From: Escherichia coli
Lineage (GTDB): Bacteria; Pseudomonadota; Gammaproteobacteria; Enterobacterales; Enterobacteriaceae
Assembly (NCBI RefSeq): GCF_048403405.1
Contig: NZ_CP183129.1
Length of the DNA: 64,000 nt
Direction: 5' to 3' (one strand)
Position 1 is the first letter of the stretch. Each line of letters starts with the position of its first letter. Positions 21,699-27,224 of the stretch are shown in pieces. The position numbers and the translations under genes were made by a program. Under the pieces are notes generated by a model. That model saw nothing but the letters and a program-made list of their open reading frames with translations, searched no databases and was not told the DNA's origin.

Positions 21699-21998
21699 AT
21701 GAGAACATATTTATCTGGCTTGACTGCCAGCGGTTATGCACACCCTAAAATTATCCCCGGCGCTATTTATCTGGATAAGAACGGTAACAGAGTAACGGTA
21801 AAAGAACTGATGTTTGACCGTGTTTATTTTATTCGTGATGGCTATTCATTTCATAGTTCGCTGAACGTGGAGATCTTTATTTGCAGATTCCGGCGGGAAA
21901 TCCCGCTTTCCAGAAATAACCATGTGTCATGTATGGATGTTGATAAAAAACTACAGGAACTGAAAAACATGATTGCCGCGTGGAGAGAGCAGAAATGA
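21699..21998 (+). CDS. Hypothetical protein (99 aa)
   Basis: ORF whose stop overlaps the primase start (ATGA coupling). Confidence 0.5.
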   Translation: MRTYLSGLTASGYAHPKIIPGAIYLDKNGNRVTVKELMFDRVYFIRDGYSFHSSLNVEIFICRFRREIPLSRNNHVSCMDVDKKLQELKNMIAAWREQK

Positions 21999-23812
21999 AA
22001 AAAGCGCCAAATTTAAAACACCAGCCGCGTGACAAAATGACGGAAGTCATCATTTTTGCGGGTAGTGATGCGTGGGCACATGCGAAGCAGTGGCAGGAAC
22101 AGGACGGGCGACTGGCAGGCGATAACGTGCCACCTGTCTGGCTTGGAGAGCAACAACTTGCCGAACTGGACAACCTGCAAATTGTACCGGACGGACGCTA
22201 TCGCGTGCGTCTCTATCAGGCGGGGTTATTGCGTCCGGGGCTTGTTAATACCATCGGGCAGAAACTGGCAGCGGCAGGTGTCAGGGATGCTGATTATTAC
22301 CCTGAAGGAATGCACAGCCAGAAACGGGAGAACTGGCGCGAATATCTGGAACGTGAGCGGGGAGAGCTGGCGGAAAAGAAAAAGGTAGTTGAACTGCCTG
22401 TAAAGAAAAAAGAGCGGGTAAAAGACGATAACGCTTCATCACTGGCGCTTAACCAGATGGGAGCAAGTCAACGCGGCGAAGTTCTCCTGGCACATTATGG
22501 CGGTGAACTGGCGATTCATGCCGACTCTGACACTGTTCACCATTACAACGGCGTTGTATGGGAGCCAGTACAGGATAAAGAATTACAGCGAGCTATGGCG
22601 CAGATTTTCATTGATGCGGAGATCAGCTATTCGCAGAACGCCATTAAATCGGCGGTCGATACCATGAAGTTAAGTTTGCCTGTAATGGGGAATACAGCCC
22701 GTAACCTGATTGGATTCAGTAACGGGGTATTTGATACCAGAACAGGTAATTTTCGGGAGCATAACAAAAACGACTGGTTGTTAATTGCCAGTGAATTACC
22801 TTTCAGCCCACCAGCAGAGGGGGAAACGCTGGCAACACATGCGCCGAATTTCTGGAAGTGGTTACGCCGTTCGGTGGCTGAGAATGACCGCAAGGCGGAT
22901 CGCGTACTGGCGGCATTATTCATGGTGCTGGCGAACCGGTACGACTGGCAGTTATTCATTGAGGTAACAGGTCCAGGGGGAAGTGGTAAAAGCGTGATGG
23001 CGGAGATTTGCACCATGCTGGCGGGTAAGGCTAATACAGTATCAGCAAGCATGAAGGCGCTGGAAGATGCAAGGGAACGTGCGTTAGTGGTTGGCTTTTC
23101 TCTGATTATCATGCCGGATATGACCCGCTACGCTGGTGATGGGGCAGGGATTAAGGCCATTACAGGCGGTGACAAGGTGGCAATTGACCCGAAACACAAA
23201 GCTCCCTACTCAACGCGTATTCCGGCAGTAGTGCTGGCGGTTAACAATAACGCCATGTCATTCAGTGACCGCAGCGGGGGGATCTCACGTCGTCGGGTGA
23301 TATTCAATTTTTCGGAAGTTGTACCGGAGAACGAACGTGATCCGATGCTGGCGGAAAAAATAGAAGGTGAGCTGGCGGTAGTGATTCGCCATCTGCTTAC
23401 ACGGTTTGCTAACCAGGACGAAGCCAGACGCCTGTTATATGAGCAGCAGAAATCTGAAGAAGCACTGGCGATAAAGCGAGAGGGGGATTCGCTGGTGGAC
23501 TTCTGCGGCTATCTCATGGCGTCGGTAATGTGTGATGGCCTGTTAGTGGGTAATGCTGAAATTGTGCCATTCAGCCCGCGCAGATATCTCTATCATGCCT
23601 ATCTGGCTTATATGAGGGCACATGGGTTTGGTAAACCTGTAACACTGACGCGCTTCGGTAAAGATATGCCGGGGGCAATGGCGGAATATGGCAGGGAGTA
23701 TATGAAACGGAAAACGAAGCACGGTTTGCGTTCAAACGTGACACTGACGGAGGAATCAGAAGACTGGATGCCATCATGTGTATCGGTCACTAATGACGAT
23801 AGCAAAAATTAA
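21995..23812 (+). CDS. Primase-helicase of the phage/plasmid P4-alpha type (PICI pri-rep)
   Basis: About 605 aa; Walker A GPGGSGKS in the C-terminal half; followed directly by the iteron array. Confidence 0.8.
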   Translation: MKKAPNLKHQPRDKMTEVIIFAGSDAWAHAKQWQEQDGRLAGDNVPPVWLGEQQLAELDNLQIVPDGRYRVRLYQAGLLRPGLVNTIGQKLAAAGVRDADYYPEGMHSQKRENWREYLERERGELAEKKKVVELPVKKKERVKDDNASSLALNQMGASQRGEVLLAHYGGELAIHADSDTVHHYNGVVWEPVQDKELQRAMAQIFIDAEISYSQNAIKSAVDTMKLSLPVMGNTARNLIGFSNGVFDTRTGNFREHNKNDWLLIASELPFSPPAEGETLATHAPNFWKWLRRSVAENDRKADRVLAALFMVLANRYDWQLFIEVTGPGGSGKSVMAEICTMLAGKANTVSASMKALEDARERALVVGFSLIIMPDMTRYAGDGAGIKAITGGDKVAIDPKHKAPYSTRIPAVVLAVNNNAMSFSDRSGGISRRRVIFNFSEVVPENERDPMLAEKIEGELAVVIRHLLTRFANQDEARRLLYEQQKSEEALAIKREGDSLVDFCGYLMASVMCDGLLVGNAEIVPFSPRRYLYHAYLAYMRAHGFGKPVTLTRFGKDMPGAMAEYGREYMKRKTKHGLRSNVTLTEESEDWMPSCVSVTNDDSKN

Positions 23813-23824
23813 ACTTATGGAATA

Positions 23825-24049
23825 ACTGTTCACCACTGTTCACCCTGTCATAAATATCTTTTATATCAGTATATTATAGGGTTAACAGTTATTTATGAAC
23901 TGTTCACCAAACTATTCACTGTTCACCTTTTTGATTGTTTATTGAGCTTCAAGGGTGAACAGTGGTGAACAGTTGGTGAATAGTTTTTGTGAAACTGTTC
24001 ACCCCTTAACCTTATGAATTAAAAGATAAAATATCAAAAGGTGAACAGG
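23825..24049. repeat. Candidate origin of replication: array of about 9 ACTGTTCACC / GGTGAACAGT iterons with AT-rich spacers
   Basis: Direct copies at 23825, 23835, 23899, 23918, 23994; inverted copies at 23954, 23964, 24040; degenerate copies at 23909 and 23975; immediately 3' of the primase gene. Confidence 0.75.
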
Positions 24050-24196: not shown

Positions 24197-24457
24197 ATGC
24201 CGATTCTGACGCATGAAATAAACAATTATTTTGATCAATTCGGACTTCATGATATTGCTTCAATGCCTACCACTCAGTACCGTCAGGCCCTTGCAAATGG
24301 TGGTTTACTGTGGATTGATCATCATGATTTTATTCGTAGCACGCTATCAGATGAAATCCTTGCAACAAATCAAGAGCAGGTTAATGTTTTGATTGAGCAT
24401 TTGCAGGTTTTAAGGAAAAAAATGCCACTACCTCCTAATTGGATGAGTGAGAAATGA
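24197..24457 (+). CDS. Hypothetical protein (86 aa)
   Basis: ATG at 24197 with RBS aggaag; convergent with the two-gene operon. Confidence 0.55.
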   Translation: MPILTHEINNYFDQFGLHDIASMPTTQYRQALANGGLLWIDHHDFIRSTLSDEILATNQEQVNVLIEHLQVLRKKMPLPPNWMSEK

Positions 24458-24459
24458 AT

Positions 24460-24490
24460 TATATGGCCTGGCTCTTTGCCAGGCCATATA
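24460..24490. terminator. Bidirectional terminator: perfect 13 bp inverted repeat between convergent stop codons
   Basis: tatatggcctggc-tctttg-ccaggccatata located exactly between the stops at 24455-24457 (+) and 24492-24494 (-). Confidence 0.75.
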
Positions 24491-24491
24491 C

Positions 24492-25001
24492 TCAAAGCAT
24501 TGTTAACAAGGCGGACGCACCAGCACCAACGAGACTGGCTACCGTACTATTATTTAGTAAATCCTTAAGCAAATTTTTTGCCTGAGGATCTTGTGATTGA
24601 GAAACTTTTTCAACAAGTTCAGTTATGCTGAGATTTACAATAAGATTGTTATGCTCACCGAGTTGAACCTGTGTACCGGATATGTTACCAATGTTAAATG
24701 TATTTTGGCTAGATTGTTTTGGTTTATGTTCATTAGCAGTCAGATTCTCGACTTTTAATGTAAGCATGTGAGGGTGATTAGTACCAACATTGAGTGTACC
24801 TCCTGGTAAAAATGACATATCAATTACTTTTAATATTATTTCCCCCTTCCCTAGTTTTTGAGTGATTTCATCTCCAATATTAATATCTGGTTCTTCAGTA
24901 TAAGGGATTAGCACTTTTTTTTCAGCTGAGTTTCTTTTCCCCTTGTATTCAACTCCTGCGATTGTGAATTTTTCTGGATATGCCATGACGTTAAGATCCA
25001 T
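24492..25001 (-). CDS. Candidate system gene B: 169-aa protein with hydrophobic Gly/Ala-rich C-terminal tail
   Basis: ATG (rc of 24999-25001) with RBS gaggag 7 nt upstream; 27 bp after gene A; C-terminus STVASLVGAGASALLTML; shares a C-terminal module with gene A. Confidence 0.7.
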   Translation of the reverse strand: MDLNVMAYPEKFTIAGVEYKGKRNSAEKKVLIPYTEEPDINIGDEITQKLGKGEIILKVIDMSFLPGGTLNVGTNHPHMLTLKVENLTANEHKPKQSSQNTFNIGNISGTQVQLGEHNNLIVNLSITELVEKVSQSQDPQAKNLLKDLLNNSTVASLVGAGASALLTML

Positions 25002-25030
25002 TATGTTGCTCCTCGTGATCGCTTTTGCGT

Positions 25031-25807
25031 TTAACTAGTAGATTTGAAAGTGTATTTTGTCTGTGTGTTAAGGTTTGATATTAGAGCTTCATAGTTTTCT
25101 TTACTCAGTAAGTTTTTTGAGTAGGCCTTCTTAAGAAGGTTTTTTGAGAGAGTAATAATTTCTTTTTCACCAGTTGATGCAATTTTTGAGAAGAACTCAG
25201 AGAGCTCTTGTATATTAATATTGTTATTTGTACCAAGTTGTACGTATTGGCTATTTACAGTAGCTATGTTGAATATGTTTTGTTTTGGATGCGTTTTTTT
25301 TAGCTTTTCAATTTCAGCATGTTCTATGATTTTTTGAGAGATACTTTCAATATAACCACTAACGTCTTTTTTTTCTGGGAAGGAAAACCCATCACCTCTT
25401 AATATTTTATCTGTTTCGGCCATTTCATAGTAAAGCCTGCGAATCATCACAAGTAATAGTAATTTAGCCTCCTCGATTGACTCCTCTATTGAGAATTGAC
25501 ATTCAATTGCTAACGCGGAGGTCTGCTCTAAAACAATTTCTGAGTTATTTTCAATGTAAGGATTGATAAAACCATTCCAAAAAATTTGAACGGGAGTACC
25601 TTTAAATGCCAAACCTTGATAGCATATTTCTGTTCCATCATATGCAGTAACTTTCATGGGGGGGCCTGCATTGAAAAATCGCCATCTATGAATCAGTTTG
25701 GTTAATCTTTCGTCAATCTCCCGAACTAATTTATAAGTCCTTTTGAACAATGGGGATGGTCGCATCCCAGGAACAGCAAGAATTTCTTTTGTCACTTGAA
25801 TCTCCAT
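25031..25807 (-). CDS. Candidate system gene A: 258-aa protein, no recognisable motifs
   Basis: First gene of the two-gene minus-strand operon; Lys/Asn/Ile-rich, AT-rich coding sequence; segment KQNIFNIATVNSQYVQLGTNNNINIQELSEFF is paralogous to gene B. Confidence 0.7.
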   Translation of the reverse strand: MEIQVTKEILAVPGMRPSPLFKRTYKLVREIDERLTKLIHRWRFFNAGPPMKVTAYDGTEICYQGLAFKGTPVQIFWNGFINPYIENNSEIVLEQTSALAIECQFSIEESIEEAKLLLLVMIRRLYYEMAETDKILRGDGFSFPEKKDVSGYIESISQKIIEHAEIEKLKKTHPKQNIFNIATVNSQYVQLGTNNNINIQELSEFFSKIASTGEKEIITLSKNLLKKAYSKNLLSKENYEALISNLNTQTKYTFKSTS

Positions 25808-26054
25808 AGTTTATCAGCATTTTTGTAAATTATTTGTGTGTTAACATTCAAGACTGTTCGTAACAAAAATACCTTATTTACATCAATTTTTTGATCCATA
25901 TCTTAAATAGTGGCACTCAGACGTGAGCCGCCACTGTTGCCGTCCGATCCCCTGCGCGATGCCGGGTTGATCTGCGAGATGCCGAGAGTGTCGGGCGGCG
26001 CTCCCTCCGTGTTGGTTTCACGTCCTGAATCTTAACCAATACGAGAAAACCTTC

Positions 26055-27224
26055 ATGAAGAAATTAATCGAGCTCCGCCAGCAAAAAAACGCCCTGAAAA
26101 ACCAGATGCGATCCCTGCTGGAAAAAGCCGACAGTGAAAACCGCAGCCTGAACGATGACGAGGGCAAACAGTTTGATGAACTGCGTGCAAAAGCTGATTC
26201 CCTCGATACAGACATTTCCCGCCTCGAGTCTGTGGCTGATGAAGAACGCAGCAAGCCAGGAACGGGCATCCAGAAAGTATCATCTGATGAATTGCGTAAC
26301 TACATCGTAACCGGAGATGTGCGATCTCTGTCCACCAGCACTGACAGCGGCAGGGATGGCGGATATACCGTAATTCCTGAGCTTGATCGCGAAGTCATGC
26401 GCCAGCTACAGGATGACAGTGTTATGCGCGTGATCGCGACCGTGAAGACTGCAAAATCAAATGAGTTTCAGAAACTGGTTTCCACTGGCGGCGCAACTGT
26501 AGGACGAGGCACAGAAGGCAGCGCACGCAGTGAAACCAACACCCCGAAAATTGAACGCGTAACCATCAAGCTGAACCCGATCTACGCCTACCCGAAAACC
26601 ACGCAGGAAATCCTAGATTTTTCAGAGGTGGATATTCTGGGCTGGTTATCCTCCGAAATTGCCGACACGTTCGCCAGCACCGAAGAGGATGATTTTGTTA
26701 ATGGCAACGGTAACGGCAAGCCGAAAGGCTTCATGGCTTACACCCGTGCGGCGACCAGTGACAAAACCCGCGCTTTTGGCACCATTGAAAAAATGGTAGC
26801 GGCAAGTGGAACCGCCATTACAGCGGACGAACTGATCGACATTCTCTACAAGCTGAAAGCGAAATACCGCAAAAATGCCGTCTGGGTGATGAACTCGGGC
26901 ACGGCAGGGACACTACAGAAGCTGAAAAATGAGAACGGCGATTATATCTGGCGCGACAGCCTTAAAGAAGGTGCGCCGGATATGTTGCTTGGTCGTCCTG
27001 TTTACTGCCTGGAGTCCATGCCGGACATCGGCGCAGGAAAAGCACCGCTAGCGGTTGGCGATTTCAGTCGTGGTTATTTCATCGTTGATCATGTAACAGG
27101 GATTCGCACCCGACCGGACAACATTACTGAACCCGGATTCTACAAGGTCCACACGGATAAATATCTGGGCGGTGGTGTGGTGGATTCAAACGCCATCAAA
27201 ATTCTGGAAATGAAAGCTGGCTAG
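26055..27224 (+). CDS. Major capsid protein, HK97 fold, with N-terminal coiled-coil delta/scaffold domain
   Basis: 389 aa; coiled-coil N-terminus then conserved MCP blocks (LLGRPVYCLESMP, GDFSRGYFIVDHVTGIRTRPD, NAIKILEMKAG). Confidence 0.85.
   Translation: MKKLIELRQQKNALKNQMRSLLEKADSENRSLNDDEGKQFDELRAKADSLDTDISRLESVADEERSKPGTGIQKVSSDELRNYIVTGDVRSLSTSTDSGRDGGYTVIPELDREVMRQLQDDSVMRVIATVKTAKSNEFQKLVSTGGATVGRGTEGSARSETNTPKIERVTIKLNPIYAYPKTTQEILDFSEVDILGWLSSEIADTFASTEEDDFVNGNGNGKPKGFMAYTRAATSDKTRAFGTIEKMVAASGTAITADELIDILYKLKAKYRKNAVWVMNSGTAGTLQKLKNENGDYIWRDSLKEGAPDMLLGRPVYCLESMPDIGAGKAPLAVGDFSRGYFIVDHVTGIRTRPDNITEPGFYKVHTDKYLGGGVVDSNAIKILEMKAG

What the first reader, a model, noticed from the sequence alone, without database searches (positions are those of the whole stretch)
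24492..25807. AT-rich two-gene operon in the satellite's accessory slot: candidate undescribed anti-phage / abortive-infection system
Two tightly linked minus-strand genes (258 aa then 169 aa, 27 bp apart, the second with a strong gaggag RBS) sit between the iteron origin and the packaging module, the variable cargo position where phage satellites are known to carry defence systems. Both coding sequences are visibly more AT-rich and Lys/Asn/Ile-rich than the rest of the island, suggesting separate acquisition. Neither protein has a catalytic or DNA-binding motif I recognise. They share a paralogous C-terminal module (A: KQNIFNIATVNSQYVQLGTNNNINIQELSEFF; B: KQSSQNTFNIGNISGTQVQLGEHNNLIVNLSITELV), and B ends in a hydrophobic Gly/Ala-rich tail (STVASLVGAGASALLTML). 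That combination suggests two proteins that interact through the shared module, with B a possible membrane-acting effector. The operon is insulated by a perfect bidirectional terminator at 24460-24490.
Basis: partly seen in the sequence, partly recalled or inferred. Interest (0 to 1): 0.9.

Follow-up and report, generated by a model that had tools for sequence, protein, structure and literature searches.

The report
RHIM-like amyloid-motif gene pair in satellite
Two adjacent cargo genes of an E. coli phage satellite share a short motif that matches the RHIM amyloid switch of animal necroptosis kinases, which suggests, without any experiment so far, a prion-like cell-death defence against phages.

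Summary
Two AT-rich minus-strand genes, A (25031-25795/25807) and B (24492-25001), sit in the variable slot between the replication origin and the capsid gene of a capsid-forming PICI satellite at the E. coli fis locus. They end at a strong hairpin terminator.

The shared C-terminal module is real (BLASTP 1e-6). It consists of a RHIM-like motif (core VQLG flanked by Asn), two helices and, in B only, a hydrophobic Gly/Ala/Ser-rich terminal helix. Motif profiles built from this family retrieve only RIPK1, RIPK3 and herpesvirus RHIM chains from the whole PDB. Some family members hit Pfam RHIM, although A and B themselves do not.

The module is always C-terminal and is fused to at least 25 unrelated N-terminal domains. 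B usually occurs alone, in the same satellite slot and in prophage moron sites. A always has B downstream when its own tail is degenerate.

Neither protein matches PADLOC, Pfam or NCBIfam, and neither is homologous to Tai, the defence system already known from this slot. The closest known system is Bab/Agp, the amyloid-signalling abortive-infection pair of E. coli, but A and B are not members of it.

My best reading is an amyloid-triggered, membrane-acting abortive-infection module, a new variant of a known kind. The function is inferred, not shown.

The parts
24460..24490 (-). Intrinsic-terminator hairpin ending the A-B operon. It lies between the convergent B gene and the 86-aa ORF.
   Evidence: Perfect 13-bp stem with a 5-nt loop, followed on the minus strand by ATTCATTTCT. 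RNA fold -26.6 kcal/mol, z = -5.8.
24492..25001 (-). Gene B, 169 aa. It is the self-contained unit: N-terminal beta-barrel, RHIM-like motif, two helices and a hydrophobic terminal helix.
   Evidence: ORF. Full-length match to phrog_5789 at 6e-69. More than 180 homologues of about 168 aa. AF2 model.
24744..24980 (-). B residues 8-86: small beta-barrel, the putative specificity or sensor domain.
24633..24704 (-). B residues 100-123: RHIM-like motif NTFNIGNISGTQVQLGEHNNLIVN, with core tetrad V112-Q113-L114-G115 at 24657-24668.
   Evidence: I104, Q113, G115 and N118 are invariant in 47 homologues. The motif profile A6 hits only RIPK1, RIPK3 and ICP6 RHIM chains in the PDB. pLDDT is 41-49 here.
24495..24548 (-). 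B residues 152-169: STVASLVGAGASALLTML, a hydrophobic small-residue-rich terminal helix and putative membrane-acting element.
   Evidence: Kyte-Doolittle 1.70, Hessa sum +1.7 kcal/mol. N151 and G159 are invariant and S152, T153, V154, A160, G161, L165 and L169 nearly so. AF2 predicts a helix at 152-168.
25009..25014 (-). GAGGAG ribosome-binding site of B, 7 nt before the ATG.
   Evidence: Read from the sequence.
25031..25807 (-). Gene A: 258 aa from ATG 25807, more likely 254 aa from GTG 25795. It has a helical N-domain, a RHIM-like motif and helices, with no hydrophobic tail.
   Evidence: ORF. RefSeq start. 24 homologues. AF2 model. Always followed by B when its tail is degenerate.
25214..25279 (-). 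A residues 177-198: RHIM-like motif NIFNIATVNSQYVQLGTNNNIN, with core tetrad V189-Q190-L191-G192 at 25232-25243.
   Evidence: N180, G192 and N195 are invariant and Q190 nearly so. BLASTP against B gives 1e-6. Matches phrog_5789 positions 89-150 at 2e-4. pLDDT is below 50 at 174-196.
25808..26054 (.). Divergent intergenic region between A and the capsid gene. It presumably holds the A-B promoter. The capsid-proximal part is conserved among islands with different cargo.
   Evidence: Window 25822-26050 is shared by 164 E. coli genomes. The simple sigma-70 scan found no minus-strand promoter here.

Best explanation
A and B are cargo of a capsid-forming PICI satellite and form a RHIM-like amyloid-signalling module, most likely an abortive-infection type anti-phage defence.

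B is the complete unit and has three parts.
- An N-terminal beta-barrel that gives specificity.
- A RHIM-like motif that is unstructured in the monomer.
- A short helical region ending in a hydrophobic, small-residue-rich helix.

Proposed sequence of events:
1. A phage-derived cue brings B molecules together through the barrel.
2. The RHIM-like motifs nucleate a cross-beta assembly.
3. The assembly recruits further B molecules in a prion-like way.
4. The clustered terminal helices insert into and damage the inner membrane.
5. The infected cell dies before the phage completes its cycle.

A is a paralogue that kept the motif but lost the hydrophobic helix. It probably acts as a second sensor or nucleator, or possibly as a regulator, that templates B through hetero-amyloid contacts. 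The comparable pairs are RIPK1 with RIPK3 and Agp with Bab.

What is shown: the anatomy, the motif similarity, the modularity and the genomic contexts. What is inferred: amyloid formation, membrane action, the trigger and the anti-phage phenotype.
For: **RHIM-like motif**
- Pfam RHIM (PF12721) hits 8 of 38 diverse family members at E <= 0.1, best 9.8e-7. P0257 residues 106-123 match at 2e-5.
- A 28-position motif profile from distant members, searched against all PDB sequences, returns RHIM chains as its ten best hits: RIPK1 2.7e-5, RIPK3 2e-3, herpes RNR-like 0.086.
- The profile built from the A- and B-type motifs themselves gives 9 hits at E <= 10. All are RIPK1, RIPK3 or ICP6-type, best 0.01.
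- The two motif profiles match each other by hhalign at 95.7% probability, E = 9.5e-9.

**Constraint and disorder**
- The motif residues are among the few invariant positions in both families.
- AF2 gives the motif low confidence in both proteins.

**Modularity**
- The module is always C-terminal, in proteins of 145-276 aa. It is joined to B-type barrels (35 representatives), A-type domains, and 26 clusters of other N-terminal domains, two of them spurious matches.

**Division of labour between A and B**
- A-type proteins with an intact hydrophobic tail stand alone.
- A-type proteins with a degenerate tail always have B downstream.
- Loci with B alone contain no second motif-bearing ORF.

**Genomic context**
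- The after-pri slot of PICIs is an experimentally shown immune hotspot (PMC11364771).
- The slot also occurs empty or with other cargo.
- B relatives lie in moron positions of lambdoid, Mu-like and P2-like prophages.
- In Aeromonas, B lies next to an Abi_C gene and near a VspR/helicase locus.

**Precedent**
- Bab/Agp shows that adjacent E. coli genes sharing an amyloid motif confer Abi defence, with relocalisation of the effector to the cell periphery (10.1101/2024.11.07.622273).
Against: - There is no experiment on these proteins.
- B and A themselves do not reach any Pfam RHIM hit, and the window-type motif profile reaches RIPK1 only at E = 0.01. For so short a motif, similarity could be convergent.
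- The tail is only marginally hydrophobic for a transmembrane helix, with a Hessa sum of +1.7 kcal/mol.
- B is unusually conserved for a defence gene: 66% mean column identity across Gammaproteobacteria.
- B is the dominant occupant of one fixed slot. It is present there in 47 of 56 IMG/VR loci, and at least 75 of 5426 E. coli genomes carry a B-like gene. This could point to a role in the satellite's own life cycle.
- No minus-strand promoter was found by the simple scan.
- No hit in PADLOC.
Confidence: 0.5

Rival explanations
1. Satellite life-cycle factor. In this reading B's barrel, which resembles phage neck or stopper proteins, binds helper-phage heads, portals or tail ends. B would then divert tails to satellite capsids or block helper virion completion, with the RHIM-like motif serving only for oligomerisation. 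This would be helper interference rather than host defence.
For: - B sits directly beside and divergent from the capsid gene in 47 of 56 IMG/VR loci and in many E. coli cf-PICIs.
- The neighbouring precedent, Tai, blocks tail assembly.
Against: - PilZ and split-barrel folds score almost as well, so the fold match is generic.
- There is no sequence-profile match to any head-tail family.
- B also occurs without any satellite, in Shewanella and Aeromonas chromosomal islets and in Mu-like, P2-like and lambdoid prophages.
- Related islands lack the gene altogether.
- The same C-terminal module carries many unrelated N-domains.
Confidence: 0.12
2. Membrane-anchored superinfection exclusion or another non-suicidal protective moron. 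In this reading the terminal helix is a constitutive tail anchor, the motif and helices mediate oligomerisation at the membrane, and the variable N-domains block phage DNA entry or another early step without killing the cell.
For: - The hydrophobic helix is at the very C-terminus and is often followed by one to three polar or charged residues.
- The genes sit at moron positions typical of exclusion genes.
- B is highly conserved, which fits a conserved host or membrane partner.
Against: - The tail's hydrophobicity is marginal for constitutive insertion.
- In a tail-anchored topology the N-domains would face the cytoplasm, which is a poor position for blocking entry.
- An invariant RHIM-like core is not needed for simple anchoring.
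Confidence: 0.12
3. Anti-defence decoy. By analogy with viral RHIM proteins (M45, ICP6) that poison host RHIM signalling, the satellite- and phage-borne proteins would co-assemble with and inactivate a host amyloid-signalling defence. Within the pair, A would cap and silence B.
For: - Family members are carried by phages and satellites: phrog_5789 and phrog_16834 and the IMG/VR loci.
- A keeps the motif but lacks the effector-like tail.
- Viral use of RHIM as counter-defence is established in animals (stated in 10.1101/2024.11.07.622273).
Against: - No host RHIM-like target is known in Enterobacteria apart from this family.
- In the window only A and B carry the motif.
- B is common without A, so A is not an obligatory antidote.
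- B relatives also lie in chromosomal islets next to defence-type genes.
Confidence: 0.08
4. The motif resemblance is fortuitous. In this reading the Asn/Gln/Gly-rich hairpin is an ordinary structural element of a small oligomeric protein of unrelated function, such as a host-fitness moron, and forms no amyloid.
For: - B and A have no direct Pfam RHIM hit.
- E-values for short motifs are modest.
- AF2 draws a beta-hairpin at B 103-115.
Against: - Two independent motif profiles pull out only RHIM chains from 177,635 PDB sequences.
- Pfam RHIM hits several members.
- The hairpin has the lowest confidence in both models.
- The core residues are invariant.
Confidence: 0.1

Closest known systems
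Bab/Agp amyloid-signalling abortive-infection system of E. coli ECOR25 (BASS11 motif; Ibarlosa et al., bioRxiv 10.1101/2024.11.07.622273)
   Same: - Two adjacent genes in a mobile-element defence hotspot of E. coli share a short amyloid-type motif of about 20-25 residues.
- One partner carries a terminal hydrophobic helix proposed to attack the membrane.
- The other partner lacks that helix and would act as sensor or template.
   Different: - There is no homology of the globular parts. [quoted passage not shown]
- Here the N-domains are a beta-barrel (B) and an uncharacterised helical domain (A).
- The motif is RHIM-like rather than BASS11, and it is internal rather than terminal.
- The hydrophobic helix is C-terminal to the motif, the mirror image of Bab.
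- B usually works without any partner gene.
RHIM of RIPK1/RIPK3/ZBP1/TRIF and viral RHIM proteins (Pfam PF12721), with the RHIM-like fungal PP and bacterial BASS3 motifs (Dyrka et al. 2020, 10.1101/2020.01.06.895854)
   Same: - Core tetrad (I/V)-Q-(I/V/L)-G with flanking Asn residues, for example I-N-N-S-Q-G-I-Q-I-G-D-H-N against RIPK1 I-F-N-S-S-G-I-Q-I-G-N-H-N.
- The motif occurs in pairs of proteins expected to interact.
- It is linked to regulated cell death.
   Different: - BASS3 was reported only in multicellular Actinobacteria and Cyanobacteria, in Bell/NLR gene pairs. This family is in Gammaproteobacteria, on satellites and prophages, and has no NLR.
- The B-type motif has a two-residue insertion before the core (NIGSISGxQVQVG).
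- The window proteins themselves fall below the Pfam threshold.
Tai (tail assembly inhibition) systems of PICIs, prophages and P4-like satellites (He et al. 2024, PMC11364771)
   Same: - Same genomic slot (after pri in PICIs; before terS in lambdoid phages).
- Small genes undetected by PADLOC and DefenseFinder.
- Carried by the same kinds of elements.
   Different: - No sequence relationship: TaiEcA and TaiSalA score about 3 bits against the A, B and module profiles.
- Tai proteins are helical with an R-x4-H motif and block tail assembly.
Fungal HET-S/NWD2 and HELLP/PNT1 amyloid-controlled cell-death pairs
   Same: - A sensor templates an effector through a shared amyloid motif. The PP motif of HELLP is RHIM-like.
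- The effector exposes a hydrophobic helix that targets the membrane.
   Different: - The fungal effector domains (HeLo/HELL) are N-terminal helical bundles and the sensors are NLRs.
- Here the putative effector element is a short C-terminal helical region and no NLR is present.

Membership tests
RHIM / RHIM-like amyloid signalling motifs (PF12721; BASS3; PP) | Core tetrad (I/V)-Q-(I/V/L/C)-G with conserved flanking Asn residues in a stretch of about 20 residues | tested here: met
   B has V112-Q113-L114-G115 with N103 and N118. A has V189-Q190-L191-G192 with N180 and N195. These are invariant or nearly invariant in both families.
RHIM / RHIM-like amyloid signalling motifs (PF12721; BASS3; PP) | Profile-level similarity to curated RHIM sequences | tested here: inconclusive
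   Met at family level: Pfam RHIM hits 8 of 38 members (best 9.8e-7; P0257 at 2e-5), and the A5 profile reaches RIPK1 at 2.7e-5. The window proteins give no Pfam hit. The window-type motif profile reaches RIPK1 at E = 0.01, though all 9 of its hits are RHIM chains.
RHIM / RHIM-like amyloid signalling motifs (PF12721; BASS3; PP) | The motif forms cross-beta amyloid and mediates homotypic or heterotypic assembly | not testable with these tools
   Only indirect evidence: low AF2 confidence over the motif in both proteins. Fibril, ThT and cross-seeding assays are needed.
Bab/Agp (BASS11) system | Effector with a Bell/BabyBell helical domain and an N-terminal 'MEPIS' pore-lining helix | tested here: not met
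   B starts MDLNVMAYPEKF and its N-domain is a beta-barrel.
Bab/Agp (BASS11) system | Sensor with TPR, GreA/B-C and PIN domains carrying the motif at its N-terminus | tested here: not met
   A is 254-258 aa with no Pfam domain, and its motif is at residues 177-198.
Bab/Agp (BASS11) system | Adjacent genes sharing one amyloid motif | tested here: met
   A and B are 29 nt apart and share the motif. The motif type differs.
Bell/NLR BASS gene pairs (Dyrka 2020) | NB-ARC or NACHT NLR partner with an N-terminal motif next to a Bell-domain effector | tested here: not met
   The neighbours are PICI genes (primase, 86-aa ORF, capsid). No second motif-bearing ORF exists in the window or in loci with B alone.
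Tai (tail assembly inhibition) | Homology to TaiEcA (phi80 orf63), TaiSalA or TaiPect | tested here: not met
   The A, B and module profiles score about 1-8 bits against TaiEcA and TaiSalA. The sequences were fetched.
Tai (tail assembly inhibition) | Located in the accessory region after pri in PICIs, or before terS in phages | tested here: met
   Window layout. A phage homologue lies between Rz and HNH/terS.
Known defence systems in PADLOC-DB v2 | Match to any model | tested here: not met
   No family at E <= 1 for A, B or the 86-aa ORF. None of note for ten other module-bearing proteins.

The most novel reading that the evidence does not exclude
A large, unnamed protein family of Gammaproteobacterial phages, satellites and islets uses a RHIM-type amyloid switch fused directly to a membrane-inserting helix. 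A single protein of about 170 aa would then be sensor, prion-like amplifier and executioner of cell death. The window's A-B pair would be a two-component version with hetero-amyloid templating. If so, RHIM-based 'necroptosis-like' signalling exists in E. coli and is spread by phage satellites. That would extend the RHIM/PP/BASS3 lineage from animals, fungi and filamentous bacteria to unicellular bacteria and their viruses.
Probability: 0.4. Interest if true: 0.9.

Novelty: new variant of a known kind. Interest (0 to 1): 0.8.

Why it matters
**Why the finding would be new**
- Amyloid signalling in anti-phage defence is known from a single E. coli system (Bab/Agp).
- RHIM-like bacterial motifs (BASS3) were thought to be confined to multicellular bacteria with NLR partners.
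- A RHIM-like motif on E. coli phage satellites and prophages, in a compact architecture that needs no NLR and usually no partner, would broaden the distribution of this signalling principle.
- It would also provide the smallest known candidate for a complete sense-amplify-kill device.

**Why it is tractable**
- The system is genetically easy to handle: 0.5-1.3 kb, E. coli host, known helper phages. Work could address how amyloid nucleation is coupled to membrane damage and how the RHIM lineage evolved.

**Further consequences**
- It would add a second, unrelated cargo family to the after-pri hotspot of PICIs.
- It would give a function to two PHROG families of unknown function (phrog_5789 and phrog_16834).

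Tried and rejected
- **Tai membership.** The slot matches, but the phi80 orf63 and FSL SP-016 Tai sequences are unrelated to A and B.
- **Whole-protein and whole-module PDB sequence searches.** Nothing significant. The RHIM link appeared only with motif-only profiles.
- **BFVD Foldseek with the B model.** Weak matches, TM about 0.3. Uninformative.
- **Other architectures for the B barrel.** A search with the N-domain profile found only proteins of about 168 aa with the same module.
- **Paralogue arrays around B in Shewanella.** None found.
- **Literature search by RefSeq accession.** Nothing found. Searches for RHIM-like or BASS motifs in antiphage contexts returned only the Bab/Agp preprint and the BASS papers.
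- **Promoter for the A-B operon.** The simple sigma-70 scan found no minus-strand site upstream of A.
- **Two large proteins hit by the module profile (P0232, P0261).** Rejected as repeat-driven, spurious matches.
- **Direct comparison with BASS11.** Not possible, because the Bab sequence is given only in figures.
Full report
**Setting**

The window is E. coli chromosome. The region 18-32.4 kb is an island between yhdJ and fis. Its gene order is integrase, AlpA-type regulator, Icd-like protein, primase (21980-23812), HK97-type capsid (26055-27224), protease, portal, connector, HNH, TerS and TerL. This is the gene set of a capsid-forming PICI (cf-PICI) satellite. Between primase and the finding lie iterons, 5 direct and 4 inverted copies of ACTGTTCACC at 23824-24048, and an 86-aa plus-strand ORF (24197-24457, phrog_1957).

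**The observation**

Both minus-strand ORFs are present: B at 24492-25001 and A at 25031-25807. The pair has GC 0.33-0.36 against 0.50-0.53 on either side.

- B has a GAGGAG site 7 nt before its ATG. The A-B gap is 29 nt.
- A more likely starts at GTG 25795, giving 254 aa. A GGAG lies 6 nt upstream, RefSeq uses this start, and the homologues begin MTKEIL.
- The operon ends at a perfect 13-bp hairpin at 24460-24490 (dG -26.6 kcal/mol, z = -5.8). A T-rich tail follows only on the minus strand.

The identical locus occurs in 19 of 5426 complete E. coli genomes, while 164 share only the capsid-side flank. In related islands the same slot holds a DUF3775 gene or nothing, and the small 80-86-aa ORF stays in place. 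So the slot is a true cargo position. He et al. 2024 showed experimentally that the region after pri in PICIs carries immune genes, the Tai systems (PMC11364771).

**What the proteins are not**

Neither A nor B matches any PADLOC, Pfam or NCBIfam family. They are not Tai: TaiEcA (phi80 orf63) and TaiSalA, fetched from the phage records, are unrelated. Whole-protein profiles find nothing in the PDB by sequence.

**Anatomy**

B matches phrog_5789 (unknown function) over its full length. It has more than 180 homologues of about 168 aa across Gammaproteobacteria, with 66% mean column identity. The AlphaFold2 model (mean pLDDT 67) shows four regions:

- a beta-barrel at residues 8-86 (pLDDT about 80);
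- a low-confidence stretch at 91-123 containing a hairpin;
- helices at 126-134 and 139-149;
- a terminal helix at 152-168.

The shared module is real. BLASTP of A 161-235 against B 84-159 gives E = 1e-6, and A 166-227 matches phrog_5789 positions 89-150.

**A modular superfamily**

A 74-position profile of the shared module was run against 1.84 billion representative proteins. It found 145 proteins, nearly all 145-276 aa, with the module always at the C-terminus. The N-terminal parts fall into three groups:

- B-type barrels (35 representatives);
- A-type domains;
- 26 further clusters with no detectable similarity to one another, two of them spurious hits. These include a second barrel type (phrog_16834), winged-helix-like domains and a zinc ribbon.

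A constant C-terminal part joined to interchangeable N-terminal parts is the pattern expected when the constant part carries out the common action and the variable part gives specificity. This is an inference.

**The motif**

Scanning 38 diverse members against Pfam gave one recurrent family, RHIM (PF12721): 8 members at E <= 0.1, best 9.8e-7. P0257 residues 106-123 match RHIM positions 2-19 of 22 at 2e-5. Three further tests agree.

1. A 28-position profile of the motif from distant members was searched against all 177,635 distinct PDB sequences. The ten best hits were all RHIM chains: RIPK1 at 2.7e-5, RIPK3 at 2e-3 and the herpesvirus RNR-like RHIM protein at 0.086. The alignments include InInnSqgVQIGDhN against YTIFNSSGIQIGNHN.
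2. A profile built only from the A- and B-type motifs returned nine hits at E <= 10. All were the same RHIM proteins, best 0.01.
3. The two motif profiles match each other at 95.7% probability, E = 9.5e-9.

In B the core is V112-Q113-L114-G115, and in A it is V189-Q190-L191-G192. These residues and the flanking Asn are among the few invariant positions of each family. The window proteins themselves do not reach a Pfam RHIM hit. The assignment therefore rests on family-level evidence and is best stated as 'RHIM-like'. Homology cannot be separated from convergence for so short a motif.

**The tail**

B ends in STVASLVGAGASALLTML. Its Kyte-Doolittle mean is 1.70 over 17 residues, its Hessa sum is +1.7 kcal/mol and 47% of its residues are Gly, Ala or Ser. 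Read from the sequence, small residues line two faces (A155/G159/S163/T167 and S152/S156/A160/A164). That is marginal for a constitutive transmembrane helix but typical of tightly packing helices. A's C-terminus is not hydrophobic.

Across the A family the tail degrades stepwise.

- Members with an intact tail stand alone with no B downstream: P0179, P0217 and P0141. P0141 sits in the same PICI slot and looks like an A-N-domain/B-module fusion.
- Members with a degenerate tail always have B downstream. This holds for the window, a Yersinia island, another genus and six IMG/VR loci.
- Loci with B alone contain no other motif-bearing ORF.

**Contexts**

- Of 56 IMG/VR loci with a B relative, 47 are cf-PICI-like with the capsid gene immediately upstream and divergent. 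Six of these have A plus B.
- At least 75 of 5426 E. coli genomes carry a B-like gene detectable by blastn, at several integration sites.
- Outside satellites, relatives lie at several kinds of site:
  - between Rz and HNH/terS of a lambdoid phage;
  - inside a Mu-like head module, at the end of a P2-like prophage, and between Q and the lysis genes (the second barrel type). These assignments come from reading the neighbouring ORFs and were not checked with profile searches;
  - in Shewanella chromosomal islets;
  - in Aeromonas, directly after an Abi_C gene and near VspR/helicase genes, flanked by transposases.

These are the places where defence and other moron genes accumulate.

**Mechanism proposed**

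B is a one-protein device and A is an accessory paralogue. The steps are inferred.

1. The N-domain binds a phage-derived, probably multimeric, cue.
2. The crowded RHIM-like motifs nucleate a cross-beta assembly.
3. The assembly propagates to free B.
4. The clustered terminal helices insert into the inner membrane and kill the cell.
5. A, which keeps the motif under constraint but has lost the helix, would add a second input by templating B. Less likely, it restrains B.

The anatomy, motif similarity, modularity and synteny are shown. Amyloid formation, membrane action, the trigger and the anti-phage phenotype are not. I put this reading at about 0.5.

**Comparison with what is known**

- **Bab/Agp of E. 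coli ECOR25.** This is the nearest system. Adjacent genes in a prophage hotspot share the BASS11 amyloid motif. The TPR-GreA/B-C-PIN sensor Agp templates the 109-aa Bell-like effector Bab, which moves to the cell periphery and causes abortive infection (10.1101/2024.11.07.622273). A and B work like this on paper but fail its defining features. They have no Bell domain and no TGP sensor, the motif is internal rather than terminal, and the motif type differs.
- **BASS3.** RHIM-like bacterial motifs of this type were reported only in multicellular Actinobacteria and Cyanobacteria, in Bell/NLR pairs (10.1101/2020.01.06.895854). The present family is in Gammaproteobacteria and their mobile elements and has no NLR.
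- **Literature.** I found no paper describing this family. NCBIfam (June 2026) has no model for it.

I therefore class it as a new variant of a known kind.

**Rivals**

1. **A satellite life-cycle factor using the neck-like barrel (0.12).** The fixed position beside the capsid gene and the high occupancy favour it. Occurrence outside satellites and absence from related islands argue against it.
2. **A constitutively anchored exclusion protein (0.12).**
3. **An amyloid decoy acting as counter-defence, with A silencing B (0.08).**
4. **Fortuitous motif resemblance in a protein of unrelated function (0.10).**

Each is separable by the experiments listed under decisive next steps.

Noticed in passing
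window 24197-24457 (+): An 86-aa ORF (phrog_1957, unknown function) lies between the origin and the cargo slot. A homologue of 80-99 aa keeps this position in related islands whether the slot holds A plus B, B alone, a DUF3775 gene or nothing. It therefore looks like a core satellite gene, not part of the cargo.
   Followed up: partly
window 23824-24048: The replication-origin iterons comprise five direct copies of (A/C)ACTGTTCACC and four copies of the reverse complement GGTGAACAG, in an AT-rich stretch after the primase gene.
   Followed up: partly
L015 4742-5986; L016 5870-6145: The same slot shows cargo swapping in other E. coli cf-PICIs. Strain HZ13, also at the fis site, carries a 414-aa DUF3775-domain protein on the minus strand, and strain CFSAN064036 has an empty slot. 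The DUF3775 gene is another untested candidate cargo function.
   Followed up: no
L018 383-988 and L019 847-1671: In Aeromonas, a gene with an Abi_C domain (PF14355, containing an R-x6-H stretch RTHASSAH) lies directly upstream of the B homologue on the same strand. An Xre-type regulator, VspR and a ResIII helicase are nearby. This may be a different two-gene arrangement for B.
   Followed up: partly
L026 152-877 (P0141); L082 3230-3979: Some proteins combine an A-type N-domain with a B-type C-terminal module that has an intact hydrophobic tail. In L026 such a protein sits alone in the satellite slot. This looks like a deletion by recombination between the paralogous modules of an A-B pair.
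   Followed up: partly
L063 5344-5961 and L076 5309-5926: A 201-aa protein with a hydrophobic N-terminus (MGATVTFLTTVIGAIVGGLIAGYF...) lies directly upstream of a B homologue, at what looks like the end of a P2-like prophage after a gpD-like gene. It was not analysed.
   Followed up: no
L013 1866-2480 (phi80 orf63) and L014 1779-2324: The Tai proteins fetched for comparison both contain an R-x4-H stretch (RNDLAH, RNARSH) reminiscent of HEPN domains. This was read from the translations and not tested.
   Followed up: no
L002 3067-7871 (Klebsiella 'phage' P12620-1, PQ569648): The right end of this 106-kb record, deposited as a phage, carries a cf-PICI-like block: DUF927-type primase, B homologue, capsid, protease and portal. 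This suggests a satellite assembled into, or co-assembled with, the phage record.
   Followed up: no
L027 2678-5271: A member of the second barrel type (P0154, phrog_16834-like) sits immediately downstream of groES-groEL on a metagenome contig. This context has no obvious mobile-element genes.
   Followed up: no
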